Shown here: one piece after another, positions 1-14,930 of the stretch
Numbering within the stretch: the stretch's first letter is position 1
How the letters are laid out: each line of letters opens with the position of its first letter
Notes under the pieces: model-generated
The model's input: only the letters and a program-made list of their open reading frames with translations
Databases searched by the model: none
What the model was told of the DNA's origin: nothing
From: a virus
Taxonomy: Duplodnaviria > Caudoviricetes
Strand: one strand, 5' to 3'
DNA: 64,000 nt
IMG/VR virus record: IMGVR_UViG_3300021962_000022
Made by a program: the position numbers and the translations under genes

Positions 1-80
1 GAAACGTAATAAAATCAATGGTTTATGAACGCCAACCAATATCGGGAGCTGCGCATGAGCTGCGTTTGCGCTGCTCTTTC

Positions 81-215
81 TTACATCATATCATCTAAAA
101 ATCTATTTCGGTATTCTTCTTCATCTTTTTTTATTTCCTTATGTAATCTATACATGTAATAAAGAACAACGAATAAACCTTCAATCCATAATGTGTATAT
201 AATTCCTTCTATCAT
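81..215 (-). CDS. small membrane peptide (hypothetical)
   Basis: ORF from the internal ATG (MIEGIIYTLW...), one hydrophobic segment plus a charged tail. Confidence 0.35.
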   Translation of the reverse strand: MIEGIIYTLWIEGLFVVLYYMYRLHKEIKKDEEEYRNRFLDDMM

Positions 216-300
216 AGTAATAAGTATGTCTTGGATACGATGACCGTCGTCAGGTGGAAAATAGTTTGGCAACAAAGTTTGAAAAAAAGTAAAAAAAAAA

Positions 301-331
301 TTTGTTTATACAAAATATAGATTTATATTTG
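301..331 (+). promoter_or_regulatory. Bacteroidota-type promoter
   Basis: TTTG-N19-TATATTTG upstream of the 352 operon. Confidence 0.85.
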
Positions 332-351
332 TACCATAAAACATTCAAAAA

Positions 352-630
352 ATGAAAAAGAACAAAGTAACAACCAAGAAGAAACACACCTTACTAAAAG
401 GTGAAGGTATGAACCAACACACTCTCTATGGTGAGTTTGTGATTGACGAACCTCAAACAGATTTCGCAGATGTTGGGGTTAAAGAGGATAGTGTTTTAAG
501 ACACGAACAACCAGACGGAAGTTTCTCAAACGAACATAAACCACTCAAAGTTGAAAAGGGTGATTGGGTTATGGGGAAACAAGTTGAATACAATCCTTTT
601 GAAGGTCGTGTAACTCAAATTTGGGACTAA
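352..630 (+). CDS. conserved small beta-rich His-motif protein
   Basis: GEGxNxH...LxHE...EH...QVEYNP pattern; first gene after a promoter. Confidence 0.75.
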   Translation: MKKNKVTTKKKHTLLKGEGMNQHTLYGEFVIDEPQTDFADVGVKEDSVLRHEQPDGSFSNEHKPLKVEKGDWVMGKQVEYNPFEGRVTQIWD

Positions 631-632
631 CT

Positions 633-1037
633 ATGGCGAACCCACTAATTCACTCAAAGTCCAGCGTTAAGCGTTGGGGTGGTAAGGTAGAAGATTATCT
701 ACCTATCCACGAACTTATTGATAGTCCGAAGGCGACAATGAACAATAATAGTTCTCGTTTATTAACCCATAACACTTGGTTCGCCTACACTATCATTCCA
801 AAGATTTTTGGTTACAACATTGTTAATAGCGACGGAAAGTCAGTTGATGTCGTTGATATTGCGATGTTACATATCGCCGAAGATTTCAGAATGAAGTTTG
901 TTCCAACCCCACAAGATTACCTTAAACATTTAGAAGTTCAACCCTGGATGTGTAATGGGGTAAAGGACTTGGACAACCCCGAAGCGTACGAAGTAGTTAA
1001 ACAATTAAACCAAAAAATCCACGAATATGCAAACTAA
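633..1037 (+). CDS. DUF6915-like protein
   Basis: MANPLIHSKSSVKRWGG...EDYLPIH...HxxEDF motifs (family name recalled); ATG at 633 preferred. Confidence 0.7.
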   Translation: MANPLIHSKSSVKRWGGKVEDYLPIHELIDSPKATMNNNSSRLLTHNTWFAYTIIPKIFGYNIVNSDGKSVDVVDIAMLHIAEDFRMKFVPTPQDYLKHLEVQPWMCNGVKDLDNPEAYEVVKQLNQKIHEYAN

Positions 1038-1677
1038 CGAAGCAATCGCACTCTGGAAAGAGTTAGGTATTACAACCGCAAATATGGAGTTTTCCTGCGG
1101 TGGTGATAGTATGAATGATTACCACTTTTCATTCTACAATTCCGAAAACAAAGAAGTACAAAGTGGGGAACTTGAAAGTTTCTTTGATGATGATGTATTC
1201 AAAAGAGTTGAGTTCTATGTCAATTCTGATGGACACTACATTGGTGAGTCTGGTAATGTCAGTATTGAACTAAGCGAAGATGAGGAAAACCCCGATTTTG
1301 TGTATTACAAGAATGCACAAGCCGAATGGTCAGAGAGTTTTACTGATGAAGTTGCCGTTGAACTAACAGAGAAAGAAGTTGAGTTCGTCAGAAGTAAAGT
1401 CCTCAATTTGGTTGGCAGCCAAGATGGTAATGCGATTAACTATAAAGGTGATTGTATCTTAAACAATGAGGAAGAACAAATTTCTGACACTATATCACAA
1501 AAGATTAGTGATGTTGTAATGAACCACGAATTTGAAAACGCAGAGGGTGATGAAGAAGAGTGGTTTCAATATAACACAGATGAGGTTGATAGTGATGTAT
1601 TACCTAAAATTGTGGGTAACACACTATTCGTTTCCTTAACAAAACAATTTTTGGTTTATACTGATAGTGAACTATAA
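1027..1677 (+). CDS. acidic protein, DUF6878-like N-terminus
   Basis: FSCGGDS motif; very Glu/Asp rich; overlaps the upstream stop. Confidence 0.65.
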   Translation: MQTNEAIALWKELGITTANMEFSCGGDSMNDYHFSFYNSENKEVQSGELESFFDDDVFKRVEFYVNSDGHYIGESGNVSIELSEDEENPDFVYYKNAQAEWSESFTDEVAVELTEKEVEFVRSKVLNLVGSQDGNAINYKGDCILNNEEEQISDTISQKISDVVMNHEFENAEGDEEEWFQYNTDEVDSDVLPKIVGNTLFVSLTKQFLVYTDSEL

Positions 1678-1689
1678 AAAATTAAAGAG

Positions 1690-2379
1690 ATGAAAATAAT
1701 AATTGAAAACACTCGTTTTGACTACAACATTGGTTGTCGTTTATTGAAAACAAAATATCGTAATGTTCCTTTCAAAGGTTTGGAAGATATTTGGGAAGAT
1801 ATTGTTCCTATTACTTTCAAAGAAATTACAAAGGAACTTGAAAACATTGAACAACGAAGAATTGCGATAGGTTGTTTGGGTTTGGAAAACATTTACAAAG
1901 AAGTGAACCCAAAATTGGTAGGTTCAAAAACTATTTCAAAGGAAACCTTTTGGGTTGGTGAGAATAGTGAACTTATCAAAAACAACTTTGAGGACACCTA
2001 CGAACTTTATGAAGTAAAAGGAGATGTTTGGGGTGAAGGTTCAGACTTTGGTTGGCGGAAACCCGAAGATGTTTACTTTGTGAAGTGTAAGGACACATCA
2101 ACCGATAGAGAGTATTTTATTTGGGTGGACGCACAAAGTGTTTATCGTACTAACAACCCTAACCAATGGTTGTCAAGTAGTTCCAATTTCAGTAAAGAGA
2201 TTAACCCAATTCAAGCAATTGCGTGGACAATTCAAACAGACATCAAAGAAGGTGGTATTGAGAAAATTGTTCGTCAAGGTGATTGTGTTCTTATCAAAAA
2301 GAAAAAGAATAGTGAAAGAGGTTCGGTTAGACACTTAACTGAAAAAGAATACTTGAAGTTATTGGTCGCAGAAAGTTAA
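1690..2379 (+). CDS. DUF6745-related conserved protein
   Basis: EQRRIA...YELY...CKDTSTDREY...AIAWT...RQGD motifs (family name recalled). Confidence 0.65.
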   Translation: MKIIIENTRFDYNIGCRLLKTKYRNVPFKGLEDIWEDIVPITFKEITKELENIEQRRIAIGCLGLENIYKEVNPKLVGSKTISKETFWVGENSELIKNNFEDTYELYEVKGDVWGEGSDFGWRKPEDVYFVKCKDTSTDREYFIWVDAQSVYRTNNPNQWLSSSSNFSKEINPIQAIAWTIQTDIKEGGIEKIVRQGDCVLIKKKKNSERGSVRHLTEKEYLKLLVAES

Positions 2380-2400
2380 TTGGTTTGGTTTATTGGTTAG

Positions 2401-2428
2401 AACCCCCGCAGAAATGTGGGGGTTTTTT
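2401..2428 (+). terminator. intrinsic terminator, repeated family
   Basis: AACCCCCGCAGAAATGTGGGGGTTTTTT hairpin plus T-tract. Confidence 0.9.
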
Positions 2429-2467
2429 ATTGCTCACAACAGAAGACCAGTCAACAACACCAGGTCC

Positions 2468-2530
2468 TGATTTTGTTTGGCGTTCCGTAAAGTATTGATT
2501 TTATTAGGTTTCTATATGCCAAACAAATTT
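2468..2530. repeat. inverted motif pair with 36-bp spacer
   Basis: TTTGTTTGGC(2481)-N36-(2518)GCCAAACAAA with internal TAAAGTATTGATTTTATTAGG. Confidence 0.85.
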
Positions 2531-2640
2531 CCCTGGAGCGGCATCTGGGCGATTCCAGGTCTTTCTGCTAGTTTTACTGGTTTAACCAGCGCTGTTAGCT
2601 GGTCTTCTATAATTTGATTGGCGAAAAAGTATAAAAAAAT

Positions 2641-2671
2641 TTTGTTTATATTAGAATAGATACTATATTTG
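2641..2671 (+). promoter_or_regulatory. Bacteroidota-type promoter
   Basis: TTTG-N19-TATATTTG. Confidence 0.85.
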
Positions 2672-2696
2672 TATAAACCAATTAAAACAACACGTT

Positions 2697-3104
2697 ATGT
2701 ACGAATCAGTCAAAGAGTATTATCAGTTCTTAAATGAATTGAAAAAACAAAAGGAAGAGTTCCTTTTAAAAACAAAAGAAAGTGTTCTTCAACAAATGGA
2801 TGTTTTTATGTCCGAACATGGTTGGACACGAAAGAATGGGGGTAAAGATAGAAAATTTACTCAAAAAGTATTCTACACCAAAAAGTTCAATGGTAAAGAT
2901 ATCGTAATTGAGTATCGTTGTAACTACCAAGATGATTTTGTTGATGGTGGTTTACCCGAATTTTCACACGACAAGTCAATTCCCACTAGTATTGAAAAGT
3001 TGCAAATGGGTTACTTTCATTGGAACGACCACGATACAAGTGGTTGGAGTTTAGATGTGGTAATGGAACGGATGGAAGTCTTTTATGACAAGTACACCAA
3101 GTAA
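2697..3104 (+). CDS. hypothetical protein
   Basis: monocistronic ORF between a promoter and a terminator. Confidence 0.8.
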   Translation: MYESVKEYYQFLNELKKQKEEFLLKTKESVLQQMDVFMSEHGWTRKNGGKDRKFTQKVFYTKKFNGKDIVIEYRCNYQDDFVDGGLPEFSHDKSIPTSIEKLQMGYFHWNDHDTSGWSLDVVMERMEVFYDKYTK

Positions 3105-3108
3105 CTTG

Positions 3109-3138
3109 AAACCCTCACAGAAATGTGGGGGTTTTTTA
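3109..3138 (+). terminator. intrinsic terminator, repeated family
   Basis: AACCCTCACAGAAATGTGGGGGTTTTTT. Confidence 0.9.
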
Positions 3139-3204
3139 TTTACCACAGATGTTGGTGACCCCGGTTCAGGGTGGATTTAGGTTGGCAACAAAGTTTAAAA
3201 TAAA

Positions 3205-3236
3205 TTTGGATTATAAAAGTATTCGTATTATATTTG
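3205..3236 (+). promoter_or_regulatory. Bacteroidota-type promoter
   Basis: TTTG-N20-TATATTTG. Confidence 0.85.
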
Positions 3237-3256
3237 TATTATAAATCAACAAGGAC

Positions 3257-3475
3257 ATGATAAAATCAATTAATGAAAAACAGAGTGGGGTTGAGATTGA
3301 CCTCACAGGACCTGAAGGGAACGCGTTCGTTCTTATCGGGTACGCGGGTAAATGGGCGAAACAACTTGGATTGGACTCCAAAAAAATTCAGGAGGAGATG
3401 ATGAGTGGGGATTACGAGAATTTGATTGGCGTAATTGAAAAGTATTTCGGTGAATATGTAACTCTTTATCGTTAA
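3257..3475 (+). CDS. conserved phage hypothetical protein
   Basis: IDLTGPEGNAF...SGDYENL motif recalled from phage proteins. Confidence 0.8.
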   Translation: MIKSINEKQSGVEIDLTGPEGNAFVLIGYAGKWAKQLGLDSKKIQEEMMSGDYENLIGVIEKYFGEYVTLYR

Positions 3476-3479
3476 TCAT

Positions 3480-3683
3480 ATGGCGAAGAAAATTCAAATA
3501 TTGTCACCCGATGGGTTCACCCTTGAAAGGGATGTTCCCTACTACAAGTCGCACAGAGCTGCGGCGGAGGCATTCGCAAAATGGAAAAAAGGTTATGAAA
3601 CCCAAGGTTATTATTCTTCCGTAAAGTATGGACGAATTCACTTAAGTGACCTTGAAGATTATTGTCAACTTAATTATTTGTAA
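3480..3683 (+). CDS. hypothetical protein
   Basis: tightly packed ORF in operon. Confidence 0.75.
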   Translation: MAKKIQILSPDGFTLERDVPYYKSHRAAAEAFAKWKKGYETQGYYSSVKYGRIHLSDLEDYCQLNYL

Positions 3684-3688
3684 AAACC

Positions 3689-4009
3689 ATGAAAAACTAC
3701 AATCAACTCTGCGTATGGGAGGGAACTCTCGTAGGAAAAGACCAAGTAAAAGATTTCGAAAAATTCTTCAAAGAAGAAATGGGTACTCGAGTAAAGTACT
3801 TGGAAGAAATTGAAACACAACCAACACCTGGTGAACCTGATACAGGTGGACGTAACGATGTGTTCTTCTATGTACACAATGAGGACATTGATAAATTTGC
3901 AATACCTCGTTTGTCTATGGGTATTCGTTGGTGGGAGGATGTATTACGTAATGGTAATGGTGTTTTGTATACCGAAGATGTGTTGGAGAAATATCCGATG
4001 ACCTGGTAA
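3689..4009 (+). CDS. hypothetical protein
   Basis: tightly packed ORF in operon. Confidence 0.75.
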   Translation: MKNYNQLCVWEGTLVGKDQVKDFEKFFKEEMGTRVKYLEEIETQPTPGEPDTGGRNDVFFYVHNEDIDKFAIPRLSMGIRWWEDVLRNGNGVLYTEDVLEKYPMTW

Positions 4010-4038
4010 TCCCTCGAAATTGGTTGGCAAAAAACAAC

Positions 4039-4068
4039 TTGTAGAATAAAATAATAATTATACATTTG
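4039..4068 (+). promoter_or_regulatory. Bacteroidota-type promoter
   Basis: TTG-N19-TACATTTG. Confidence 0.75.
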
Positions 4069-4083
4069 TAAAAAACTAAACGT

Positions 4084-4335
4084 ATGACAAACCAAGAATT
4101 AACCACGTATTGGGTAAACCAATGTGAGAAAGTCCTAAAGGGACGTGTTATTAAATCAGTTCGTTATCTTACTGATGAGGAAATGGAACTTATGGGTTGG
4201 TACAAAAGACCTATTTGTTTTGAATTGGACAACGGAACACTTTGTATTCCTTCAATGGATGATGAGGGTAATGATGGTGGAAGTTTGTTCTATCAAGAAA
4301 AAGGTAAGGAACTTGATGTATTACCTGTAATCTAA
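4084..4335 (+). CDS. conserved phage hypothetical protein
   Basis: GRVIKSVRYLT...DDEGNDGGSLF motif. Confidence 0.8.
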   Translation: MTNQELTTYWVNQCEKVLKGRVIKSVRYLTDEEMELMGWYKRPICFELDNGTLCIPSMDDEGNDGGSLFYQEKGKELDVLPVI

Positions 4336-4378
4336 AAAACACTTGATAAGTTAAAAAAGAATGTGTAAGTTTTTGATA

Positions 4379-4448: not shown

Positions 4449-4536
4449 ATGTCTAAATCTTTAAAAATCAATCACTTATAATCCACCAGGCGGGACGACT
4501 GGACGATTTTGTTTGGCAAAAAACACTAGTATTTTA

Positions 4537-4701: not shown

Positions 4702-5454
4702 ATGACAAAAAATGTTCAAGTAAAGTTCACCCAAAATTTGGGTATGTTCAAACTTCACAACGTAAATCGTGAGGTTGACACTCCACGCGTTAAGCGTATT
4801 ACCGACTCAATGAAGAAAGACGGATTAAAACTCGTCCCAATCATTGTTAACTCTAACTATGTTGTAGTTGACGGACAACACCGACTAACTGCAGCAAAAG
4901 AAGCGGGTAAAGGAATCTACTTTATTGTAGATGTTACTATCCCGAACACTACGAAAGGAATCTTTGAAGCCGCACGTAAGTTCAATCAGAACATGAAAGA
5001 GTGGGGTAAGAAAGATTACATTCACGGGTTCTCTGAACAAGGAAACAAATCCTACAAAACTTTGGAGGATTTTTCAAAAGAGTTCCCAATGTTCTCATTG
5101 ACTGAACGAATTATGTTACTTCAAAATTCGGGTACTCGTCATGTGGACAAACAAGATTTCGCCGATGGAAAGTTTATCGTGGGTGATATGGATAAGGCGA
5201 AAGAATGGGCGAACAACCTACTTCAACTCAAACCTTACTTTGAAAAGGGTTACAACAAATCAGTATTTGTTCGTACACTTCTTACCATTATGGAAAAGAA
5301 GACCGACTTCAAGTTTGAGGAGTTTCTTCACAAAGTAAAACTTCGTCCAAGTTCAATCTTTATGTGTGGTGATAAAAAATCATACGCGGAAATGATTGAG
5401 GACATTTACAACTATAAGCGTCGTACTGACGAAAAGTTGAATCTTCGTTTCTGA
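4702..5454 (+). CDS. ParB/Sulfiredoxin N-terminal domain protein
   Basis: PIIVN...VVDGQHRLTAA motif followed by a helical C-terminal region. Confidence 0.8.
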   Translation: MTKNVQVKFTQNLGMFKLHNVNREVDTPRVKRITDSMKKDGLKLVPIIVNSNYVVVDGQHRLTAAKEAGKGIYFIVDVTIPNTTKGIFEAARKFNQNMKEWGKKDYIHGFSEQGNKSYKTLEDFSKEFPMFSLTERIMLLQNSGTRHVDKQDFADGKFIVGDMDKAKEWANNLLQLKPYFEKGYNKSVFVRTLLTIMEKKTDFKFEEFLHKVKLRPSSIFMCGDKKSYAEMIEDIYNYKRRTDEKLNLRF

Positions 5455-5508: not shown

Positions 5509-5660
5509 ATGCGAAAAATTCACAAGATGTTCTCACCTGTCGACGGATTCTGGATGTTGTTTGGCGTAGTTTTCAACACACAAATGTTTGTAATCCAATA
5601 AAAAAGACACTTTTTGTTTAATGTTTGACTAAAAAAACCTGAACAAAATAAAAATATTTG

Positions 5661-5714: not shown

Positions 5715-6086
5715 ATGATAAAAAAACCAAGAAAGACTACGGCTAATTCTCTGAAGAAGTCTTTACACGAAATTCGTGAATGCCTTAATGAGAGTTTACC
5801 AAACTTTGAGAAGAAAGAAATGGTGGGAATTAAGTTCTCAAGAGTTGGTACTCGTTATCACATCGAAAATGCACCAGTTCCTCCTACCGATAAGATTGGT
5901 GTACAGCTTGAACGTTCTTTCAATGATTTTATGCGTAAGCTGAAAGTAAACTATGGTGGAATGAAGCTGGAAGGTTCAATGGTTATGGGAACTAAAGCTG
6001 ACATGTTTTTGGTTGGCTACAATAACTTTGAGCGTAAAGGTAAAAACCTCACCAAAAAGGGACATTCAATAGAAGGAGTTCTGTAA
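5715..6086 (+). CDS. basic hypothetical protein
   Basis: ATG at 5715 lies downstream of the promoter; the longer TTG start overlaps it. Confidence 0.75.
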   Translation: MIKKPRKTTANSLKKSLHEIRECLNESLPNFEKKEMVGIKFSRVGTRYHIENAPVPPTDKIGVQLERSFNDFMRKLKVNYGGMKLEGSMVMGTKADMFLVGYNNFERKGKNLTKKGHSIEGVL

Positions 6087-6116: not shown

Positions 6117-6147
6117 AAGCCCTCGCAGAAATGTGGGGGTTTTTTTA
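6117..6147 (+). terminator. intrinsic terminator, repeated family
   Basis: AAGCCCTCGCAGAAATGTGGGGGTTTTTTT. Confidence 0.85.
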
Positions 6148-6209
6148 TGCCTGAAGATTTCGAGTCACGGTTCAGGACGGATTTAGGTTGGCAACAAAGT
6201 AGAAAAAAG

Positions 6210-6241
6210 TTTGGTAAAAAGAAATAATTATTATATTTTTG
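6210..6241 (+). promoter_or_regulatory. Bacteroidota-type promoter
   Basis: TTTG-N20-TATTTTTG; about 60 bp nearly identical to the 9562 promoter region. Confidence 0.8.
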
Positions 6242-6265
6242 TATATGAATTTAAAAATGAAAGAC

Positions 6266-6700
6266 ATGAAAACAATATTTGCAAGTTTGTTGTTCACTTT
6301 AGTAACAACCACGTCAATGGCTCAAATGATGAAACCTGAGTATGATTGGAATAACTTTGATGAGAAATCTTATCAACTCCACAAAAAGGAATTGAATCAG
6401 TATTATGATTCTAAAAAAGAGGAAGTAATCAAAGAATATAGTTCTGGTTGGAGAACTATTGATTATACTGAATCTAAAAAAGTAGATTTGGAAATAATTG
6501 AAGTTGACAGAAAAGCGGATTTGGATGAATTGGAATTATATTACAAATTAGAAAACGAATCATCTTTCGAAAAAATGATTAGAAGTATTAAAGTATTTCG
6601 AAATTCAGTAACATTCAAATATGGTGTTCTACCGATTTCAATAGGATTTTTGTTAGGTATTCTACTCGTGGTTTTTCGAAAGACGACAAGTAAAATATAA
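6266..6700 (+). CDS. exported protein with C-terminal membrane anchor
   Basis: signal-peptide-like MKTIFASLLFTLVTTTSMAQ; C-terminal hydrophobic helix. Confidence 0.7.
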   Translation: MKTIFASLLFTLVTTTSMAQMMKPEYDWNNFDEKSYQLHKKELNQYYDSKKEEVIKEYSSGWRTIDYTESKKVDLEIIEVDRKADLDELELYYKLENESSFEKMIRSIKVFRNSVTFKYGVLPISIGFLLGILLVVFRKTTSKI

Positions 6701-6704
6701 TCAT

Positions 6705-6733: not shown

Positions 6734-6834
6734 ATGTCTGAAATTTTCAGGATACTGTTCAGGATGGATTTAGTTTGGCGTGGGCCAACCAATATCCAGA
6801 ATCCGTCGACAGGTGAAAAAAAAATAAAAATAAA

Positions 6835-7711: not shown

Positions 7712-7773
7712 AATTTAGTTTGGCGTGAGTAAAGTGTTGATTTTATTAGGGTTGTGTAACGCCAAACAAAATC
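7712..7773. repeat. inverted motif pair with 36-bp spacer
   Basis: TTAGTTTGGC(7724)-N36-(7761)GCCAAACAAA with internal TAAAGTGTTGATTTTATTAGG. Confidence 0.85.
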
Positions 7774-7894
7774 GACCTGGAAGCTGCGCTGTTGCAGCTG
7801 GTGAGCAGCTGGTGAAAAACTAGCTATTTGCTCTGGTTACTGTCGTTCAGGGCTGGGATGGTAAAAATAGTTTGGCAACAAAGTTTAAAAAATA

Positions 7895-8551: not shown

Positions 8552-8578
8552 AATTCCCCCGTGACAGGGGGATTTTTG
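8552..8578 (+). terminator. intrinsic terminator fused to the TTGGC motif
   Basis: AATTCCCCC-GTGACA-GGGGGATTTTT running directly into GTTTGGC. Confidence 0.75.
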
Positions 8579-8602
8579 TTTGGCAACAAAGTGTAAAATA
8601 AA

Positions 8603-8660: not shown

Positions 8661-9059
8661 ATGTCAAAAAGTATTAAAGTTCGTTTTAACCTCGGCAAGG
8701 GTAAAAACTACATGAAGTGGAAGGTAACACATCCTGATGGTGATGTTATCTACTATAGTCCTGATGAAGTACAAATGGTAATGACCGAGTGTACATTTAA
8801 AAACCACAAGAGTACCGCACAGAAAATTTTCGATGGTGCACACAAAACAGTTTGTGCGTGGATACTATGTAAGGACATTAAGATTTACACAGGTAAACCA
8901 ATCACGGATGAAAGTAGAAGGGTTCGTTATAATCCACGTGTCCAACCTAACTGGATATTCGATGGTCATATCATGGATAATGATGGGGTACCGAAATTAC
9001 ACACAATTGAAAGTGGCGTTTATATCACAGAAGGAAAAGGTGAAAATTGTTTGGCATAA
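8661..9059 (+). CDS. conserved phage hypothetical protein
   Basis: KVRFNLGKGKNYMKWKV...HKTVCAW motifs; follows a promoter. Confidence 0.8.
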   Translation: MSKSIKVRFNLGKGKNYMKWKVTHPDGDVIYYSPDEVQMVMTECTFKNHKSTAQKIFDGAHKTVCAWILCKDIKIYTGKPITDESRRVRYNPRVQPNWIFDGHIMDNDGVPKLHTIESGVYITEGKGENCLA

Positions 9060-9070: not shown

Positions 9071-9553
9071 ATGGAACTCATCAAAGCACAACAACTCGCA
9101 GAGAAACTAATCCACAGACACGACCTTGATGTTAAAGGATGGAGATTTTCATTTGATAACGCAAGACGTAGGTTCGGATGTTGTAAGTACAGAAGTAAAC
9201 AAATTACTTTATCCAAAGTATTGACTTTACTAAACAATGAGAAAGAAGTAAAGAATACTATTCTACATGAAATTGCACACGCATTAACACCAGGTCATCA
9301 CCATGATTGGGTGTGGAGACAGAAAGCAATTGAAATAGGATGTAATGGAAGTCGTTGTTACAGTTCTAAAATAGTTGCAACCCCTGAACCAAGATATGTT
9401 GCGACCTGTGTGGGATGTGGTAAACAACATAGTAAGAACCGTTTGAGTAAATGGTCGTCATCATCATGTCGTCCGTGTTCGGGTGGCCGTTACAACGAGA
9501 AGTTCAAACTTGAGTTCAGGATAAATCCGAAATTTAGTTTGGCAACAAAGTAG
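9071..9553 (+). CDS. SprT-like zinc metalloprotease
   Basis: RRFGCC...ILHEIAHA...HHDWVW motif and a C-terminal CxxC..CxxC. Confidence 0.85.
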   Translation: MELIKAQQLAEKLIHRHDLDVKGWRFSFDNARRRFGCCKYRSKQITLSKVLTLLNNEKEVKNTILHEIAHALTPGHHHDWVWRQKAIEIGCNGSRCYSSKIVATPEPRYVATCVGCGKQHSKNRLSKWSSSSCRPCSGGRYNEKFKLEFRINPKFSLATK

Positions 9554-9931: not shown

Positions 9932-10480
9932 ATGGGACTAGACATGTATCTCAGCAAGAAGACCTACGTTAAGAACTGGGACTTCCAAGACAAATCACAA
10001 CAGCACAAGGTGACTGTTAAAAAGGGTAGTAAGGTTCGCACCGACATCAAACCTGAACGTGTGTCATACATCACAGAGAGTGTGGCGTATTGGAGAAAAT
10101 CAAATCACATTCACCAATGGTTCGTAACGAATTGTCAAGGTGGTGAAGACCAATGTCAGGAGTCATATGTGGACAGAGGTCAACTTCAGGAGTTGGTCAA
10201 TATCTGTAAACAAGTGAAAGAGAGTTTGGAGAAATCAGGTAAGAAGACCGTGAAGATGGAAGTTGGTTGGCAGAACGGAGAAAAGATGTATGACGATGTT
10301 GAGGTGTTTGAGGATACCGAACTCGCAGAAGAATTACTTCCAACTCAACCCGGTTTCTTCTTCGGTGGAACGGAGTACGACCAATGGTATGTTCATGGTT
10401 TAGATGAAACCATCAATCAAATTGAACCACTTCTACAAGAAGAAGGGGATGGTGACTTCTACTATCAGTCATCCTGGTAA
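9932..10480 (+). CDS. conserved phage hypothetical protein
   Basis: MGLDMYL...YWRKSNHIH.WF...LLPT..GFFFG...YQSSW motifs. Confidence 0.85.
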   Translation: MGLDMYLSKKTYVKNWDFQDKSQQHKVTVKKGSKVRTDIKPERVSYITESVAYWRKSNHIHQWFVTNCQGGEDQCQESYVDRGQLQELVNICKQVKESLEKSGKKTVKMEVGWQNGEKMYDDVEVFEDTELAEELLPTQPGFFFGGTEYDQWYVHGLDETINQIEPLLQEEGDGDFYYQSSW

Positions 10481-10501: not shown

Positions 10502-10533
10502 TTTGGTAAAATGATATCCCAGTTTTACCTTTG
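10502..10533 (+). promoter_or_regulatory. promoter straddled by an 11-bp inverted repeat
   Basis: TTTG-N20-TACCTTTG; AACTGGGATAT(10489)-N14-ATATCCCAGTT(10524). Confidence 0.75.
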
Positions 10534-10561
10534 TATAATGAAAGCTTAAAAAATTAGAGAT

Positions 10562-11173: not shown

Positions 11174-11175
11174 CG

Positions 11176-11436
11176 ATGGATAACTTAAAAGTAATGTCGA
11201 CAGCAGAACCTCAGGTACAATTAACCTATCAAGAATGGGTTGACGAATTGAGGATAAAAGAAAATGTAATTGTTTCATCCAAATACCACTCAAGAACAAT
11301 TGAGCAGCGTATACGGGTGGATGAAGCAATTCAACTAAAAAGAGAAATGGAAACCTCTGAAGAAAAAGTTTCCGACGGGACAGCTGAACCTCGGATTTTG
11401 TTTGGCATGTTAAGAACAGTAATAAACCTATTTTAA
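11176..11436 (+). CDS. hypothetical protein
   Basis: ORF in operon; contains a coding copy of the TTGGC motif. Confidence 0.6.
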   Translation: MDNLKVMSTAEPQVQLTYQEWVDELRIKENVIVSSKYHSRTIEQRIRVDEAIQLKREMETSEEKVSDGTAEPRILFGMLRTVINLF

Positions 11437-11439
11437 ATT

Positions 11440-11925
11440 ATGGGACGAGTAAATAAAACAATCGAAGGTGTCTTCATCGACATCGTAGGGTCCTCAAGTG
11501 AACTTAGTTCATATGACCAATTCATTAACCATGGAGGTGGTAAGAAATATTCCAAGGAGTTGGAAGAACTTACAGCCCTGTATAAGAAGGAGGTTACTAA
11601 GAGTAAAGTGATGTTCGAAAAACTTGCATCACTCGAGGAGATTATAATCCAAATGAGGATTCGTGAGGACCTTAGTGATATCAAGTTGACCCAAGTCCGT
11701 GAGTACATCTACGCAAGGACTCCATTCTACCGTAAGGATAAGAAGTCAAAAGATGTCCGTGTCATTGTCGACAAAATTGAATTCCATCCTGAGTCGGACG
11801 GTAACCTCGAGATTTTGCTTGGCAACAAGGACTTCATGGAGAAAGCAAAAAACAAGTTGGCCCAAGCAATGGACCTTGAGATTTTAGAGAATATCAAAAC
11901 ATTCAATTCATCATTTAAAAAGTAG
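11440..11925 (+). CDS. hypothetical coiled-coil protein
   Basis: ORF in operon; contains a coding copy of the TTGGC motif. Confidence 0.8.
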   Translation: MGRVNKTIEGVFIDIVGSSSELSSYDQFINHGGGKKYSKELEELTALYKKEVTKSKVMFEKLASLEEIIIQMRIREDLSDIKLTQVREYIYARTPFYRKDKKSKDVRVIVDKIEFHPESDGNLEILLGNKDFMEKAKNKLAQAMDLEILENIKTFNSSFKK

Positions 11926-11929
11926 AGTC

Positions 11930-12232
11930 ATGAAAAGAACAGAAGACATCAAAACAAACATTGGTTTATCAATCTTCAAAGGAGATTGGGACGGTGCAAC
12001 TTGGACCATCACTGGTTTCCCTAAAAAGGATGTGATTAGTCACGACTTTGATTCAGCATATGATTTCGAGGATTGTATTAAACGAAATGTTAATTGCAAC
12101 GGAATCGATTTCGACAGTGAGTATTGTCAGTTCTTTGCATACGCAAAAACCAAAGCACGTTTAGTGTCTTTTGCAAAACAGATTGAAAAACATTTCGAGA
12201 AAGCAAAGAAGGTGATGGAGGAGATGTACTGA
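11930..12232 (+). CDS. hypothetical protein
   Basis: ORF in operon; FDSEYCQF motif. Confidence 0.8.
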   Translation: MKRTEDIKTNIGLSIFKGDWDGATWTITGFPKKDVISHDFDSAYDFEDCIKRNVNCNGIDFDSEYCQFFAYAKTKARLVSFAKQIEKHFEKAKKVMEEMY

Positions 12233-12262
12233 TTTTGTCTGGCGAAAAATATCACAAAAAAA

Positions 12263-12294
12263 TTTGGAATATTCTAGAATTAGTATTAAGTTTG
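12263..12294 (+). promoter_or_regulatory. Bacteroidota-type promoter
   Basis: TTTG-N20-TAAGTTTG. Confidence 0.8.
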
Positions 12295-12313
12295 AATCAA
12301 GAACCAAAATATT

Positions 12314-12631
12314 ATGTCATATAAACAACAAGTACAGGATTTACAGAATGATATTATAAACAATATCAAACGATTCGTAGGTGAACTCGGTCAAGATGAA
12401 TTACATTTTAACGAGATGTTTAGAGTTTGGGTAACTATATCAACTTGGGACGATGATTATGTTCGTGTGTCATACGCGGCGGTCGGGTTACGGGGTGAGT
12501 TTGTTATCTGTACCAGTGAGGTTGAGGAAGAAGAAATTCAATTAGGGGAACTCGACATATATGAGTTGTCATACATTTTAGATTTACTAATATCAAATCA
12601 ATTTAAAACCGATAACAATGGACAAGATTAA
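12314..12631 (+). CDS. acidic hypothetical protein
   Basis: ORF after a promoter. Confidence 0.75.
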   Translation: MSYKQQVQDLQNDIINNIKRFVGELGQDELHFNEMFRVWVTISTWDDDYVRVSYAAVGLRGEFVICTSEVEEEEIQLGELDIYELSYILDLLISNQFKTDNNGQD

Positions 12632-13217
12632 ATTAAACAGTAAGGTCGTCGTATCCGACCCTTGTTACACAATCCCAACCTGGTGTCAAGCTGTAGTTGA
12701 CAAAGTAAAACCCGGTATGTATGACACCCACCTGAAGAAACACGACGCAGGTGATTGGGGTAAGAGATGTTCAATGTTACTTGTCATACACGAGGACCAT
12801 AAAGATGATATCCTAAGATGGGAGGAACATTCCGCAACCATCGGGGTCGATTCAGGTCAGTGTGGTATCTTCTCAAAAGAAACTTACCGTAACGATTCAA
12901 TCACCGAGAAAATTGGTTTGGGTGATGGGGACATTTCATTCTTTGGTGTTTCACCTTGGAAAGAAATGACTGATGGTCGTAAAGAGGAAGAAGGAGAAAT
13001 ATGGTATGTTAGTATGTGTTCTCGAACCTTAGGTGAAAAATCTTGGGGTGTGTATGACAGTGGAGTCGTATCCTCATCAGGTTTTGGTGACGGTTCATAC
13101 AGTTTATATGTCGCAAAGAAAAGAGGAAAGATTGTGGCAATGTGTGTGGACTTTCAAGTTGAAGAAGAAGGTGTAATCGATTTTGATTTTTTTCGCGATA
13201 TCCAACTAGAGAAGTAA
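12618..13217 (+). CDS. DUF4241-like protein
   Basis: VVSDPCY...GVDSGQCGIF...SSGFGDGSY motifs. Confidence 0.7.
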   Translation: MDKIKLNSKVVVSDPCYTIPTWCQAVVDKVKPGMYDTHLKKHDAGDWGKRCSMLLVIHEDHKDDILRWEEHSATIGVDSGQCGIFSKETYRNDSITEKIGLGDGDISFFGVSPWKEMTDGRKEEEGEIWYVSMCSRTLGEKSWGVYDSGVVSSSGFGDGSYSLYVAKKRGKIVAMCVDFQVEEEGVIDFDFFRDIQLEK

Positions 13218-13240
13218 TAAATTTTATTTAGATTTGAATC

Positions 13241-13522
13241 ATGAAAAAATTACTATTGATATTGCCAATTTTATTTGTGGTTGGGTGCAGAAGTACCTCA
13301 ACATACATCAAACACTCGGATGTAGCAATCGTATCGGGTGACATCCTTTATATATGCAATAAGGGACACGGTCCGATGATTTATAATTATTGGAAGAATG
13401 ATGTTTACTGTGACTCAACAATTAAGAGTGTTTATTTGTTGGACAGTATCCCATTTAATGCATTGTCCAAGAAATCCATACCATGTGGATGTAATCAAAG
13501 AGGGTATGCTAAATTAAAATAA
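13241..13522 (+). CDS. putative lipoprotein
   Basis: lipobox-like LFVVGC after a hydrophobic signal. Confidence 0.7.
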   Translation: MKKLLLILPILFVVGCRSTSTYIKHSDVAIVSGDILYICNKGHGPMIYNYWKNDVYCDSTIKSVYLLDSIPFNALSKKSIPCGCNQRGYAKLK

Positions 13523-13989
13523 TGACTATGTTCAATAAACAACACGCATCAAAACCGAATCATATCTTGAGTCCATCTCAGTGGATGAATTTTGGTTGGC
13601 TAACCATGGTACCTGTATCATATTTCGTCCACCCATATGCATGTGCACTGGCTGTGGTCATATACATCTACAAATATTTCGAAGTAGACTGTTGGAGGTA
13701 TGAATTCTATGATGACTGTGTTGTTGAACGTAAAGGAGTCTTCAGTGTGACTCGTGAATCGGTTCAGTACTTCAGGATTAAATCTGTAATGGTGGATGAA
13801 CCATTCTGGATGAGACTCCTCGGGTTATCAATTGTAAGAGTGATGACCTCAGAACAATTTAAACATGAATTAATATTTCAGGCCGTAGAAGAGGGTGAAG
13901 GAATTCAGGCATACTTACAACACAACGCAAGAGCAGAAAGATTGAATATGGGAATCAGGGATTTCGATGTATACAATACGCATCTGTAA
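13522..13989 (+). CDS. membrane protein with bacterial PH (bPH_2) domain
   Basis: two TM segments then YEF...ERKGVF...RIKSV....PFWMRLLGL. Confidence 0.75.
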   Translation: MTMFNKQHASKPNHILSPSQWMNFGWLTMVPVSYFVHPYACALAVVIYIYKYFEVDCWRYEFYDDCVVERKGVFSVTRESVQYFRIKSVMVDEPFWMRLLGLSIVRVMTSEQFKHELIFQAVEEGEGIQAYLQHNARAERLNMGIRDFDVYNTHL

Positions 13990-13993
13990 CGTT

Positions 13994-14314
13994 ATGAAAC
14001 TGTTCATCAGAGATAAGGTATACTTTACGGACCCTACTACAGGAGAGTTCTTTGAAGACACTATAACACATGTCGACGAACAGGTTATAATGGGAAGAGA
14101 CCGTGACTTGACATCGTTACACGAGAGAGGAGATTTAAATATCTATCGGATGCAATGTTACGTATGTGGATGTATAATCCCGAAACCATTATCACAGTTT
14201 CAGGTGGACGGTTTAAAGGGTAAACAACAATTGTTACCATCCACATGTAACGTCTGTCTAAGTGACCCGAGATATTATGAGGACCCTGAGGAGGGAATCA
14301 TACTGTTCATTTAG
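13994..14314 (+). CDS. hypothetical protein with C-terminal zinc finger
   Basis: CYVC...CNVC; ATG at 13994. Confidence 0.7.
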   Translation: MKLFIRDKVYFTDPTTGEFFEDTITHVDEQVIMGRDRDLTSLHERGDLNIYRMQCYVCGCIIPKPLSQFQVDGLKGKQQLLPSTCNVCLSDPRYYEDPEEGIILFI

Positions 14315-14460
14315 TTTGGCTAAGTCCGACGACAGGTGATACCGGAATTCCCGATTTAGTTTGGCCGAATCAGAATCGGTCGACGGGACCTGAGATGGTG
14401 GATTTAGTTTGGCGGGGGTTCAGATGACAGGTGACCCTGGAATCCCCGATTTAGTTTGGC
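14309..14460 (+). repeat. tandem array of four ATTTAGTTTGGC cores
   Basis: exact 12-mers at 14309, 14354, 14402 and 14449 (periods 45, 48, 47) with related GC-rich spacers. Confidence 0.9.
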
Positions 14461-14516
14461 ACAAGTTCTTTAAAATATTTTATACAGGATTTGGTTTTTA
14501 GGATTTTCTTGTTTAT

Positions 14517-14524
14517 TATTTATA
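14517..14524 (+). promoter_or_regulatory. putative late promoter TATTTATA
   Basis: 17 nt upstream of ATG 14542; the motif recurs before about 10 genes. Confidence 0.55.
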
Positions 14525-14541
14525 TACAAAATTATTATATT

Positions 14542-14814
14542 ATGGCAACAAAGAAGTCCACAACAAAAAAACCCGCTAGCAAACCCGCAGCGAAACCAGC
14601 ACCAGCCCCTAAGAAGGGTGGGTCTAAAAAAGCCGTAGCTACACCCGTGGCGAGAACAACTGTTAGTACTTATGTAGCAGTTTCTCACCACATCTACTAC
14701 GATGGTTTCTCTTACCGAGTTCGCGCTAGTGTTAACGGAACCCGTTACTCTCAGAACTTCTCTTCTAAGAAGAAAGCGTTCGCGTTCCGTAAGAGTATTT
14801 TGAGTACTATGTAA
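14542..14814 (+). CDS. small basic DNA-binding protein (histone-H1-like tail plus AP2-like domain)
   Basis: K/A/P-rich N-terminus, then IYYDGFSYRVRASVNGTRYSQNFSSKKKAFAFRK (three strands plus a helix pattern). Confidence 0.6.
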   Translation: MATKKSTTKKPASKPAAKPAPAPKKGGSKKAVATPVARTTVSTYVAVSHHIYYDGFSYRVRASVNGTRYSQNFSSKKKAFAFRKSILSTM

Positions 14815-14837
14815 TTTTACAAAAAATCTCTTAACTG

Positions 14838-14870
14838 AATCCTGTGATTAGTTTCACAGGATTTTTTTTT
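14838..14870 (+). terminator. intrinsic terminator
   Basis: AATCCTGTGA-TTAGTT-TCACAGGATT plus T-tract. Confidence 0.9.
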
Positions 14871-14930
14871 GTCCTGAAAGTTTTGTTTAAAAAAACAATG
14901 ACCGACGAATTTAGGTTGGCATTTTTTAGG

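What the first reader, a model, noticed from the sequence alone, without database searches (positions are those of the whole stretch)
1..14920. Polar 13-bp motif marks only the early block and sits at a fixed distance from host-type promoters
Seen: about 30 copies of approx. RAWWTWGKTTGGC. The 26 plus-strand copies end at 270, 1416, 2056, 2481, 2622, 3186, 3430, 4028, 4517, 5565, 6192, 6779, 7724, 7876, 8584, 9055, 9543, 11406, 11823, 12243, 13600, 14320, 14365, 14413, 14460 and 14920; the 4 minus-strand copies start at 31, 2518, 6784 and 7761. In 8 promoters the motif ends 17-19 bp upstream of the -33 TTTG (2641, 3205, 4537, 6210, 7895, 8603, 9562, 12263). Other copies are written into coding sequence, e.g. 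the C-terminus of the SprT gene. I found no full copy in the remaining 49 kb, although identical core promoters occur there. Inference: this is the binding site of a phage protein that marks the first-expressed or first-injected DNA, acting as an activator/UP element and a DNA-level landmark.
Basis: partly seen in the sequence, partly recalled or inferred. Interest (0 to 1): 0.82.

Follow-up and report, generated by a model that had tools for sequence, protein, structure and literature searches.

The report
Lineage-specific operator motif marking phage early block
A 13-base motif occurs about 30 times in one 15-kb block of early genes of an uncultivated jumbo phage of Bacteroidota, sits in helical register with host-type promoters, and is found only in phage lineages that carry a ParB/KorB-like gene in the same block, so it is probably that protein's binding site.

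Summary
RAWWTWGKTTGGC has 21 exact copies (0.1 expected by chance) and 34 within one mismatch, 31 of them in 1-14920. All eight quoted 17-19 bp offsets to the -33 TTTG hold.

- **Relatives.** In a 288-kb relative, 36 of 36 exact copies lie in one 24-kb block. More distant lineages carry a different motif (TTTACTGGGG or TTTACCGGGA), again confined to the orthologous block.
- **Phasing.** Across nine non-redundant loci, the gap from motif to -33 falls in only three classes (7-10, 17-20 and 28-30 bp), about one helical turn apart.
- **Discrete element.** Only the 12-13 bases carry information. Arms of inverted pairs do not covary. One lineage carries the motif on the opposite strand to its genes. 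These points favour a double-stranded DNA protein site over an RNA element.
- **Candidate binder.** The block encodes a ParB/KorB/Noc-like protein (4702-5454). All 12 lineages with this gene have a TGGC-type motif. None of 9 well-covered lineages without it do.
- **Cassettes.** The sites sit in terminator-motif-promoter cassettes whose repeats bound the insertions and deletions between strains, as in PeSL cassettes of T4-type phages.

"First-injected DNA" is not supported: the block lies inside relatives' contigs. Binding, and whether the site activates or represses, remain untested. I class it as a new variant of known kinds (KorB-type multi-operator control plus PeSL cassettes).

The parts
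1..14920 (+). One-directional block of about 28 small genes, each with host-type -33/-7 promoters and intrinsic terminators. It is cut by the left edge of the window. The orthologous block in relative G001 is about 24-25 kb.
   Evidence: ORFs. Promoters. Terminators. GC-skew switch at about 15 kb. G001 block extent.
2610..2622 (+). Motif copy (two mismatches), 18 nt upstream of the -33 TTTG at 2641.
3174..3186 (+). Motif copy 18 nt upstream of the -33 at 3205. It follows terminator 3108-3135.
4505..4517 (+). Motif copy 19 nt upstream of the -33 at 4537, in the leader region of the ParB-like gene.
6180..6192 (+). Motif copy 17 nt upstream of the -33 at 6210. It is part of the strain-specific cassette.
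7864..7876 (+). Motif copy 18 nt upstream of the -33 at 7895.
8572..8584 (+). Motif copy (one mismatch) abutting terminator 8555-8572, 18 nt upstream of the -33 at 8603. The orthologous promoter in G001 has a gap of 9.
9531..9543 (+). Motif copy within the last codons of the SprT-like ORF, 18 nt upstream of the -33 at 9562.
12231..12243 (+). Motif copy (one mismatch) overlapping the stop codon of ORF 11930-12232, 19 nt upstream of the -33 at 12263.
258..270 (+). Motif copy 30 nt upstream of the -33 at 301 (the 28-30 phase class).
4016..4028 (+). Motif copy about 10 nt upstream of a -33-like TTG (the 7-10 phase class).
2469..2530 (.). Convergent inverted pair of motif arms around a conserved 36-bp spacer. 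The spacer is inverted relative to the orthologous G001 element.
7712..7773 (.). Second inverted pair with the same 36-bp spacer, also inverted relative to G001.
6767..6796 (.). Inverted pair with a 4-nt spacer, forming a near-palindrome TTTGGC-N4-GCCAAC.
1..43 (-). Right half of a third spacer-type inverted pair. Its left arm lies beyond the window start.
14308..14460 (+). Tandem array of four copies (periods 45, 48 and 47 nt), directly upstream of the small basic-protein gene.
14908..14920 (+). Last copy, after terminator 14837-14864, at the convergent strand switch.
5553..5565 (+). Intergenic copy (one mismatch) after terminator 5479-5502.
1404..1416 (+). Copy inside ORF 1027-1677 (codes L-V-G). 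It is conserved in G001.
2044..2056 (+). Copy inside ORF 1690-2379 (codes F-G-W).
3418..3430 (+). Copy inside ORF 3257-3475.
6005..6017 (+). Copy inside ORF 5658-6086.
9043..9055 (+). Copy within the last codons of ORF 8661-9059, 15 nt before the SprT-like start codon.
10259..10271 (+). Copy inside ORF 9932-10480.
11394..11406 (+). Copy 30 nt before the end of ORF 11176-11436.
11811..11823 (+). Copy inside ORF 11440-11925. The same L-L-G codons are spelled as the other motif type (TTTACTGGG) in lineage B.
13588..13600 (+). Copy inside ORF 13522-13989.
4702..5454 (+). ParB/KorB/Noc-like protein (250 aa) with a GQHRLTA motif. It is the candidate protein that binds the motif.
   Evidence: phrog_12305, E 2e-21. 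AlphaFold2 pLDDT 89.5. Foldseek matches to ParB, KorB and Noc at probability 1.0. VIA-align 2 Z 11.7 for the N-domain; KorB Z 10.3 over 165 residues. Co-occurrence with the motif.
14542..14814 (+). Small basic protein P0001 (90 aa) with a Lys/Ala/Pro-rich tail and an invariant three-strand-plus-helix domain. It is flanked by motif arrays in several lineages.
6146..6704 (+). Strain-specific cassette (motif, promoter, gene 6239-6700, terminator). It is absent from G001 and from strains in runs X4, X5 and X8, and is bounded by a repeated 27-nt terminator sequence.
3108..3135 (+). One of the sequence-conserved intrinsic terminators. Others are at 2399-2426, 6705-6728 and 7643-7665, with one more just upstream of 6146. 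Together these form the upstream half of the cassettes.

Best explanation
The motif is the recognition site (operator) of a phage-encoded, sequence-specific DNA-binding protein that acts on double-stranded DNA across the block of early or accessory genes. Each gene unit in the block is a cassette: intrinsic terminator, GC-rich spacer, motif, A-rich tract, then a host-type -33/-7 promoter.

The site sits on a fixed face of the helix relative to the promoter, centred near -52, -61 or -72. A protein bound there could therefore touch or constrain host RNA polymerase. Additional sites lie in gene bodies, at gene ends, in convergent pairs and in a tandem array at the end of the block, and give the whole block a high site density.

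The most likely binder is the ParB/KorB-like protein encoded in the block at 4702-5454. It would work like KorB of plasmid RK2, where one early-made protein with many operators sets the output of a whole set of promoters. I think feedback limitation or shut-off of early promoters is somewhat more likely than activation.

The repeated cassettes also serve as homology for the gain, loss and swapping of genes, as PeSL cassettes do.

**Shown:** the motif's existence, confinement, polarity and phasing; its replacement as a whole between lineages; its co-occurrence with the ParB-like gene; and cassette-bounded insertions and deletions.

**Inferred:** physical binding, the identity of the binder, and the sign of regulation.
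For: - **Discrete element.** Across 79 plus-strand copies, only the 12-13 bases carry information. In the cassettes the motif is more conserved than the -33 and -7 boxes.
- **Confinement.** All 21 exact copies in the window lie in the block. In G001, 36 of 36 exact copies and 67 of 74 core copies lie in 25 kb of 288 kb. Only 7 lie outside, against about 20 for the reversed-pattern control.
- **Phasing.** Sixty-six of 68 gaps from motif to -33 fall in 7-10, 17-20 or 28-30 nt. The resultant length is 0.86 at a period of 10-10.5. Orthologous promoters jump between classes, for example 18 to 9 and 18 to 29. In lineage B the nearest copy clusters at 53-57 nt, with minor peaks at about 31, 42-45 and 65.
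- **Trans factor implied.** Lineages B and C replace the motif by TTTACTGGGG or TTTACCGGGA, again confined to the orthologous block: 31 of 31, 15 of 15 and 30 of 30 copies. Other lineages have no such motif at all.
- **DNA level, not RNA.** Most copies lie between a terminator and the next promoter. Partner arms of 61 inverted pairs are no more alike than shuffled partners, 10.49 against 10.32, p about 0.1. L045 carries the motif mostly on the antisense strand.
- **Candidate binder.** The ORF at 4702-5454 has a ParB N-domain (Z 11.7, rmsd about 2 over 90 residues). It aligns with the KorB N-terminal and DNA-binding domains over 165 residues (Z 10.3), and its GQHRLTA sequence fits GxxRxxA.
- **Co-occurrence.** The gene is present in all 12 TGGC-motif lineages, at 39-95% identity to the window's copy. 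It is absent from 9 lineages searched over at least 10 kb upstream or over the whole contig, and those show only background TGGC counts. The two states interleave on the GP88 tree.
- **Precedent.** KorB operators lie 4-10 bp or 45 to more than 1000 bp upstream of promoters (PMC11790492). The ParB-like BisD activates at a distance (PMC12409273).
Against: - No binding data of any kind exist.
- ParB-family sites are normally palindromes bound by dimers, whereas this motif is asymmetric. Only 5 of 61 pairs form a 16-bp palindrome.
- The link to the ParB-like gene is a correlation. The well-supported branches of the tree force only one gain or loss, so shared ancestry could explain it.
- Lineages B and C have an analogous motif but no ParB-like gene and no identified substitute. 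A different, conserved protein might therefore read all motif types.
- The roughly 10-bp steps could partly arise from slippage of A-tract units in the spacer.
- Cassettes are near-copies of one another, so the offsets are not independent observations.
Confidence: 0.5

Rival explanations
1. The motif is only the best-conserved part of repeated terminator-promoter cassettes (PeSL-like). These would be kept alike by recombination and gene conversion, with no dedicated binding protein. The fixed offset would then simply reflect copying of one cassette.
For: - Cassettes are near-identical over about 75 nt.
- Differences between the window and G001 are bounded by the repeated terminator (27 nt) or by the motif-promoter cassette (77 nt).
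- Cassette 6146-6704 is missing in other strains.
- PeSLs are described for T4-type phages (PMC2839356, PMC4122927).
Against: - Information is confined to the 12-13 bases and the flanks carry none.
- About half the copies have no promoter. They lie inside genes, at stop codons, in inverted pairs and in tandem arrays.
- Gaps take three discrete classes rather than one.
- The motif tracks the presence of one gene across lineages that share the same cassette architecture.
Confidence: 0.15
2. The motif acts in RNA, as a processing, stability, antitermination or protein-binding signal in early transcripts. The inverted pairs would then be RNA hairpins.
For: - There is a strong sense-strand bias in the window and close relatives: 250 plus against 73 minus copies.
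- Copies occur at gene 3' ends and over stop codons.
- Metatranscriptome contigs show that the block is present in RNA libraries.
Against: - Most copies lie after an intrinsic terminator and before the next promoter.
- Arms of pairs show no compensatory agreement.
- In L045 the motif is mainly antisense to the genes, and in lineage B the two strands are about equal.
- Distances are phased to the promoter, not to the transcript.
Confidence: 0.08
3. The motif is a polar barrier or physical landmark: a replication-fork or transcription roadblock, an injection-stop signal, or a packaging or genome-end signal. The tandem array at the strand switch would be its main site.
For: - Arrays of 3-4 copies with 45-57 nt periods sit at the convergent end of the block in several lineages.
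- The motif has polarity, and the block is bounded by strand switches.
Against: - The block is internal in relatives' contigs, and the window start is an assembly break.
- Arrays move from one side of the small basic-protein gene to the other between strains.
- Orientation is reversed in L045.
- A barrier model does not explain phasing to promoters.
Confidence: 0.08
4. The motif is a recombination site for a site-specific recombinase, in the manner of a shufflon or integron. It would invert the short spacers and excise or insert gene cassettes.
For: - The 36-bp spacer between inverted arms has opposite orientation in the window and in G001 at two orthologous places. Both orientations also occur within L009.
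- Gene cassettes are gained and lost.
Against: - No recombinase was found among the block's proteins.
- Insertion and deletion junctions fall in the terminator or the promoter cassette, not at the 13-mer.
- No strand-changing joints appear in contigs or reads of four other samples.
Confidence: 0.06
5. The motif is bound by a host protein, or is a host-specific upstream promoter element. The differences between lineages would then reflect different hosts.
For: Immediate-early promoters can only use factors that are already in the cell. Positions at -52, -61 and -72 resemble class I activator sites.
Against: - The motif type tracks a phage gene rather than anything known about the host.
- The same promoter type elsewhere in the phage lacks the motif.
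- The core is depleted outside the block.
- No host genome was available for testing.
Confidence: 0.06

Closest known systems
PeSL (promoter-early stem-loop) cassettes of T4-type phages (Arbiol et al. 2010, PMC2839356; Comeau et al. 2014, PMC4122927)
   Same: Both are repeated, sequence-conserved terminator-plus-early-promoter units between small genes of a hyperplastic region. The repeats bound insertions, deletions and replacements between close relatives.
   Different: Here a separate 13-bp motif lies between the stem-loop and the promoter. It also occurs without promoters, differs between lineages and tracks a ParB-like gene. The promoters are of the Bacteroidota -33/-7 type, not sigma-70.
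KorB and its OB operators on plasmid RK2 (PMC11790492)
   Same: A ParB-fold protein encoded by the element itself has many operator copies. These lie both just upstream of promoters and far from them, and control a whole set of promoters. The window protein aligns with the KorB N-terminal and DNA-binding domains (Z 10.3 over 165 residues).
   Different: OB is a palindrome with about a dozen copies. Here the site is asymmetric, has 30-70 copies and is confined to one block of a lytic-type jumbo phage. No KorA-like partner or partition function has been identified. Neither binding nor CTP use has been tested.
Region-marking site sets of bacterial chromosomes (ParB-parS near the origin, Noc-NBS absent from the terminus). 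This comparison rests on my own knowledge; the Noc and ParB structures appear among the fold matches.
   Same: A ParB-family protein is paired with a short site whose genomic distribution, rather than any single copy, defines a domain.
   Different: Those systems organise segregation and division. Here the domain is a transcription block, and the sites are phased to promoters.
Phage phi29 p4 upstream sites (PMC3100819) and the T4 MotA box (PMC2988021)
   Same: A phage early protein binds a short site at a fixed position relative to host-polymerase promoters, to switch early promoters off or later ones on.
   Different: p4 and MotA have few sites or a -30 box that replaces the -35 element. They have no copies inside genes, no arrays and no ParB fold.
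Start-associated sequences (SAS and ESAS) of cluster K mycobacteriophages (from my own knowledge, not checked here)
   Same: Both are asymmetric 13-bp motifs repeated many times in one orientation in a phage genome, with associated inverted repeats.
   Different: SAS lie a few bases upstream of start codons, which points to a role in translation. Here the position is fixed relative to the -33 box and to terminators.

Membership tests
PeSL cassette | Stem-loop terminator directly upstream of a host-type early promoter in intergenic spaces of a variable region | tested here: met
   Terminators at 2399, 3108, 4421, 5479, 6705, 7643 and 8555 are each followed within 40-200 nt by a -33/-7 promoter.
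PeSL cassette | Cassettes repeated with conserved sequence within one genome | tested here: met
   Terminator and promoter sequences are near-identical between copies.
PeSL cassette | Cassettes coincide with insertion, deletion or replacement boundaries between close relatives | tested here: met
   Junctions between the window and G001 fall in a 27-nt terminator repeat and a 77-nt motif-promoter repeat. Cassette 6146-6704 is absent in three other samples.
PeSL cassette | The element consists only of promoter plus stem-loop, with no further specific motif | tested here: not met
   The 13-mer is the most informative part and also occurs away from cassettes.
ParB/KorB-type protein with operator set | ParB-CTPase-fold N-domain with the GxxRxxA motif | tested here: met
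   phrog_12305, E 2e-21. Z 11.7, rmsd about 2 over 90 residues against Myxococcus and Caulobacter ParB. GQHRLTA has G, H, R and the last A invariant (Q nearly so) across 20 homologues.
ParB/KorB-type protein with operator set | Helical DNA-binding domain following the N-domain | tested here: inconclusive
   KorB 8qa9_A aligns over model residues 6-204 (165 residues, rmsd 4.0, Z 10.3). No Pfam HTH hit was found.
ParB/KorB-type protein with operator set | Palindromic 13-16 bp site bound by a dimer | tested here: not met
   The motif is asymmetric. Only 5 of 61 inverted pairs have the 4-nt spacer that makes a 16-bp palindrome.
ParB/KorB-type protein with operator set | The protein physically binds the sites, with nucleotide-dependent clamping | not testable with these tools
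   Only co-occurrence is available: 12 of 12 lineages with the gene against 0 of 9 without.
ParB/KorB-type protein with operator set | Partner protein (ParA or KorA-like) | not tested
   No search was made for a partner. None of the block proteins scanned hit such a family.
UP element (alpha-CTD site) | A/T-rich sequence between about -40 and -60 that works with host polymerase alone and is not phage-lineage specific | tested here: not met
   The invariant core is G..TTGGC. The motif is replaced between lineages and is absent from other consensus promoters of the same phage. The A-rich tract between the motif and the -33 box could itself be UP-like.
Class I-type upstream activator or repressor site | Site positions differ by whole helical turns relative to the promoter | tested here: met
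   Gaps are 7-10, 17-20 and 28-30 nt, with resultant length 0.86 at 10-10.5 bp. Lineage B shows 31, 42-45, 53-57 and 64-66 nt.
Genome-end or first-injected DNA marker | The block lies at a physical end of virion DNA | tested here: not met
   The block is internal in contigs of G001 and G004, and the window starts inside a repeat element. Virion ends themselves could not be mapped.

The most novel reading that the evidence does not exclude
A lytic jumbo phage uses a ParB-CTPase-fold protein that loads at 30-70 asymmetric sites to coat or insulate one 24-kb early-gene domain. This would be a phage-encoded, site-defined chromatin-like domain that sets the timing of a whole gene class. The protein and its site would be exchanged as a module between lineages, since other lineages use a different site with an unknown protein.
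Probability: 0.25. Interest if true: 0.8.

Novelty: new variant of a known kind. Interest (0 to 1): 0.62.

Why it matters
Control of early genes in phages of Bacteroidota is almost unstudied, and the many ParB-fold proteins of phages have no assigned role (survey in PMC12704722). This case pairs a clear cis-element with a candidate trans-factor, and the pairing can be tested directly by gel shift, footprinting, ChIP and reporter assays.

If the link holds, KorB-type multi-operator control would extend from plasmids to lytic jumbo phages. It would also show how a regulatory protein and its sites can be swapped between lineages. Finally, it would give a sequence signature for delimiting the early or accessory gene block in uncultivated phage genomes.

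The cassette structure also extends PeSL-type modular shuffling beyond phages of Proteobacteria.

Tried and rejected
- **No close reference.** There is no near DNA match in the cultured-phage collection, and the GP88-like protein has only distant cultured relatives. No whole genome is held for the window.
- **Hairpin or RNA-structure reading.** Rejected because partner arms do not covary.
- **Small basic protein P0001 as reader of the lineage-specific motif.** Its core is invariant across lineages with different motifs, so it is unlikely. Its three-strand-plus-helix domain gave only weak, tied fold matches (Z 4.6 or less, with AP2 domains among them).
- **ParB_N hit in G003.** This is an unrelated 311-aa protein in a minus-strand cluster outside the block.
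- **Search for a substitute binder in lineages B and C.** Pfam scans of their block proteins found nothing DNA-binding. The only ORF shared by B and C but absent elsewhere is an 86-aa protein with no family.
- **Metatranscriptome contigs.** They cover block genes but cannot show transcript ends or strand. Their skipping joints fall at cassette repeats and may be assembly artefacts.
- **Ongoing inversion of the 36-bp spacers.** No strand-changing joints were found in four other samples.
- **Overlapping upstream promoter.** I considered the motif's TTTG acting as a -33 box with TAAATTTG as a -7 box. The spacing of 16 nt is too short for the 19-21 nt consensus, judged from the sequence.
- **Coding constraint as an explanation for in-gene copies.** It explains part of them, since the conserved G-W and L-x-G residues persist in distant relatives without the motif. 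It cannot explain the enrichment.

Full report

Yes. The pattern RAWWTWGKTTGGC has 21 exact matches in the 64-kb window, all between 31 and 14920. Shuffled sequence gives 0.10 on average. With one mismatch there are 34 matches, 31 of them in the block. The three outside are at chance level and lack the TTGGC end.

The 9-base core T[AT]GN[TC]TGGC has 29 plus-strand and 4 minus-strand hits in the block and none in the other 49 kb.

The eight quoted offsets hold: the motif ends 17-19 nt before the TTTG of promoters at 2641, 3205, 4537, 6210, 7895, 8603, 9562 and 12263. Consensus promoters of the same TTTG-N19-20-TAnnTTTG type occur on the minus strand at 20023, 22828, 23191, 36448, 41871 and 47654 without the motif.

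**2. Setting**

The window is part of a large phage genome. No whole genome is held for it, and earlier notes on the same genome place tail, baseplate and tRNA regions more than 100 kb further on. Its promoters are of the Bacteroidota -33/-7 type.

Bases 1-14920 form a one-directional array of about 28 small genes. The GC skew changes sign at about 15 kb, where minus-strand genes converge.

Intergenic regions share one architecture, in this order:
- an intrinsic terminator, often with the same sequence;
- 35-60 nt of unusually GC-rich spacer (49% GC in the 30 nt before the motif, against 36% for the block);
- the motif;
- an A-rich tract;
- the -33 box and the -7 box.

Twenty of the 32 copies are intergenic, although 81% of the block is coding. 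Ten are inside genes and two overlap stop codons.

The four minus-strand copies are the right arms of convergent inverted pairs. Two pairs enclose a conserved 36-bp spacer, one has a 4-nt spacer, and one is cut by the window edge. Four copies form a tandem array (periods 45, 48 and 47 nt) at 14308-14460, just upstream of a small basic-protein gene.

**3. Relatives**

A GP88-family protein of the block (6888-7658) retrieved 26 loci, and later more, from IMG/VR. Close relatives carry 14-30 exact copies per locus.

In G001, a 288-kb contig estimated 92% complete, all 36 exact copies lie between 211,010 and 235,180. Sixty-seven of 74 copies of the 9-base core lie between 210,557 and 235,694. Only 7 lie in the other 263 kb, where the reversed-pattern control suggests about 20. 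Site density in the block is therefore about 100-fold higher than elsewhere, and the core may even be avoided outside it.

The block in G001 is about 24-25 kb, so the window cuts its own block on the left. It is bounded by a divergent gene junction on one side and a convergent one on the other.

More distant lineages do not have this motif. Instead they have another short motif, enriched in the same way and confined to the orthologous block:
- TTTACTGGGG in lineage B: 31 of 31 copies within 18 kb of a 131-kb contig, and 15 of 15 in another contig.
- TTTACCGGGA in lineage C: 30 of 30 copies within the last 14.4 kb of a 269-kb contig.
- No comparable motif in further lineages (L046-L053).

**4. 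What kind of element is it?**

*It is discrete.* Across 79 plus-strand copies from the window and G001, information content is confined to 12-13 positions and the flanks carry none. Within promoter cassettes the motif scores higher than the -33 and -7 boxes.

*It is phased to promoters.* In nine non-redundant loci, 66 of 68 gaps between a plus-oriented copy and the -33 TTTG fall in three narrow classes: 7-10 nt (15), 17-20 nt (37) and 28-30 nt (14). Nothing lies between these classes. The circular resultant is 0.86 at a period of 10-10.5 bp. Orthologous promoters switch class between strains, for example 8603 in the window (gap 18) against gap 9 in G001, and 7895 (gap 18) against gap 29. In lineage B the promoter-proximal copy is the minus-oriented arm, mostly 53-57 nt from the -33 box, with minor groups near 31, 42-45 and 64-66 nt. 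With the -33 box at -36 to -33, the three classes place the site centre near -52, -61 and -72.

*The arms of inverted pairs are independent sites.* In 61 pairs the two arms agree at 10.49 of 13 positions, against 10.32 for shuffled partners (p about 0.1). The right arms also show a systematic preference for G at position 8 that would create a mismatch in a hairpin.

*Strand polarity is a property of the lineage, not of the mechanism.* The count is 250 plus against 73 minus in the TGGC-motif loci and roughly equal in lineage B. It is reversed in L045, where a GAATATTCTTTGGCA variant lies 14:3 on the strand opposite the genes.

Taken together, these points favour a protein site on double-stranded DNA that works with the promoter. 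They argue against an RNA signal.

**5. A candidate protein**

The ORF at 4702-5454 matches a PHROG annotated as ParB-like (E 2e-21, full length). Pfam gives only a weak GmrSD_N hit.

A model built on 20 homologues has pLDDT 89.5. Foldseek's top matches are the pNOB8 ParB-N domain, Myxococcus and Caulobacter ParB, KorB, Noc and Spo0J, at probability 1.0. A second alignment gives Z 11.7 (rmsd about 2 over 90 residues) for the N-domain. It gives Z 10.3 over 165 residues (model 6-204) against the KorB N-terminal plus DNA-binding domains. The conserved GQHRLTA fits the GxxRxxA nucleotide-binding motif of the family as I know it.

The gene is present in every lineage with a TGGC-type motif:
- the window and L001, L009, L010, L011 and L012;
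- G001 and G006;
- L037, L038 and L040, found through more distant homologues (49-56% identity) and carrying TTGCTTGGCA, TTGTCTGGCA and TTGTTTGGCA respectively;
- L042-L045, at 39-62% identity.

It was not found in G003, G004 or G005 when the whole contigs were searched. It was also absent from L047-L049, L051 and L052, which have 10 kb on each side. All of these have the TGGC core at background level.

On a GP88 tree the two states interleave, with a minimum of four changes. Strongly supported branches force only one. This is a consistent correlation and not proof.

Published precedent exists. KorB of RK2 is a ParB-fold protein whose operators lie 4-10 bp or 45 to more than 1000 bp upstream of the promoters it silences (PMC11790492). 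The ParB-like BisD activates genes at a distance (PMC12409273). ParB-fold proteins are common in phages, and the survey proposes only tentative roles for them (PMC12704722).

Against membership in the KorB class, the site is asymmetric. Only 5 of 61 pairs have the 4-nt spacing that would give a 16-bp palindrome.

**6. The cassettes also behave like PeSLs**

Alignment of the window with G001 shows that the differences are bounded by cassette repeats:
- A unit of motif, promoter, gene 6239-6700 and terminator (6146-6704) is present only in the window and is flanked by the same 27-nt terminator sequence.
- Two extra promoter-gene units in G001 are flanked by the 77-nt motif-promoter repeat.
- The tandem array lies upstream of the small basic-protein gene in the window and downstream of it in G001.

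Contigs from three other samples also lack 6311-6692. This matches the promoter-early stem-loop cassettes of T4-type phages and their proposed role in modular shuffling (PMC4122927, PMC2839356).

In addition, the 36-bp spacer between inverted arms is inverted between the window and G001 at two orthologous places. No inversion joints were seen within other samples.

**7. What is not supported**

The idea of first-injected DNA, or of a genome end, has no support. The block is internal in relatives' contigs, and the window begins inside a repeat element.

A plain UP element is unlikely, given the G/C-containing invariant core and the replacement of the motif between lineages.

The small basic protein next to the array (P0001) has an invariant core in lineages with different motifs. 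It is therefore a poor candidate to read the lineage-specific motif.

**8. Verdict**

The finding is real, highly non-random and reproduced in relatives. The best reading is an operator-like site of a phage DNA-binding protein acting on the promoters of the early or accessory block. I put this at about 0.5, including the proposal that the ParB/KorB-like protein is the binder. The site is embedded in PeSL-like mobile cassettes.

The system is a new variant of known kinds rather than a new category.

Noticed in passing
window 1067-15438, with three direct copies at 14932-14994: A second short motif, GTATKACA, has 19 matches in the window, all within the first 15.4 kb (6.6 expected by chance). 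Related words (GTATTAC, CGTATGACA) are enriched and strand-biased in all lineages, including those without the TGGC motif, and occur inside many inverted-pair spacers of G001.
   Followed up: partly
window 14542-14814: A 90-aa protein with a Lys/Ala/Pro-rich tail and an invariant C-terminal domain of three strands plus a helix (pLDDT 85-92). It is flanked by motif arrays in the window, G001 and L009-L012. Fold matches are weak (Z 4.6 or less, with AP2 domains among the ties). It might read the conserved GTATKACA word.
   Followed up: partly
window 2482-2517 and 7725-7760, against L027/L028 (G001): The conserved 36-bp spacer between inverted motif arms is flipped between the window and G001 at orthologous positions. 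Both orientations also occur within L009. No inversion joints were seen in four other samples.
   Followed up: partly
L045:2474-12444: One ParB-bearing lineage has a variant site, GAATATTCTTTGGCA, lying mostly on the strand opposite the genes (14 against 3). It also has an array of about 46-nt period next to the homologue of the small basic protein.
   Followed up: partly
L018:291-551 and its homologue in L021: This 86-aa ORF is the only one shared by the two TTTACYGGG lineages and absent from all TGGC-motif and motif-less loci. It has no family hit.
   Followed up: partly
window 33410-34519, 54116-55414, 57175-58305, 61014-62531: An aminotransferase, an oversized thymidylate-synthase-like protein (432 aa), a glutamine-synthetase-like protein and glycosyltransferases are present. 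Together they suggest a nucleotide or DNA modification pathway.
   Followed up: no
window 47666-50970: Two adjacent large proteins (468 and 624 aa) have PcfJ-like C-terminal domains.
   Followed up: no
G001 contig outside 210557-235694: The 9-base core of the motif occurs only 7 times in 263 kb, against about 20 for the reversed-pattern control. This suggests the core is avoided outside the block.
   Followed up: partly
window 6146-6179, 6729-6766; L027/L028: Many GC-rich spacers between terminator and motif contain a second small inverted repeat, CCTGAA...TTCAGG, or words such as GTCGACAGGTGA. Their role is unknown.
   Followed up: no
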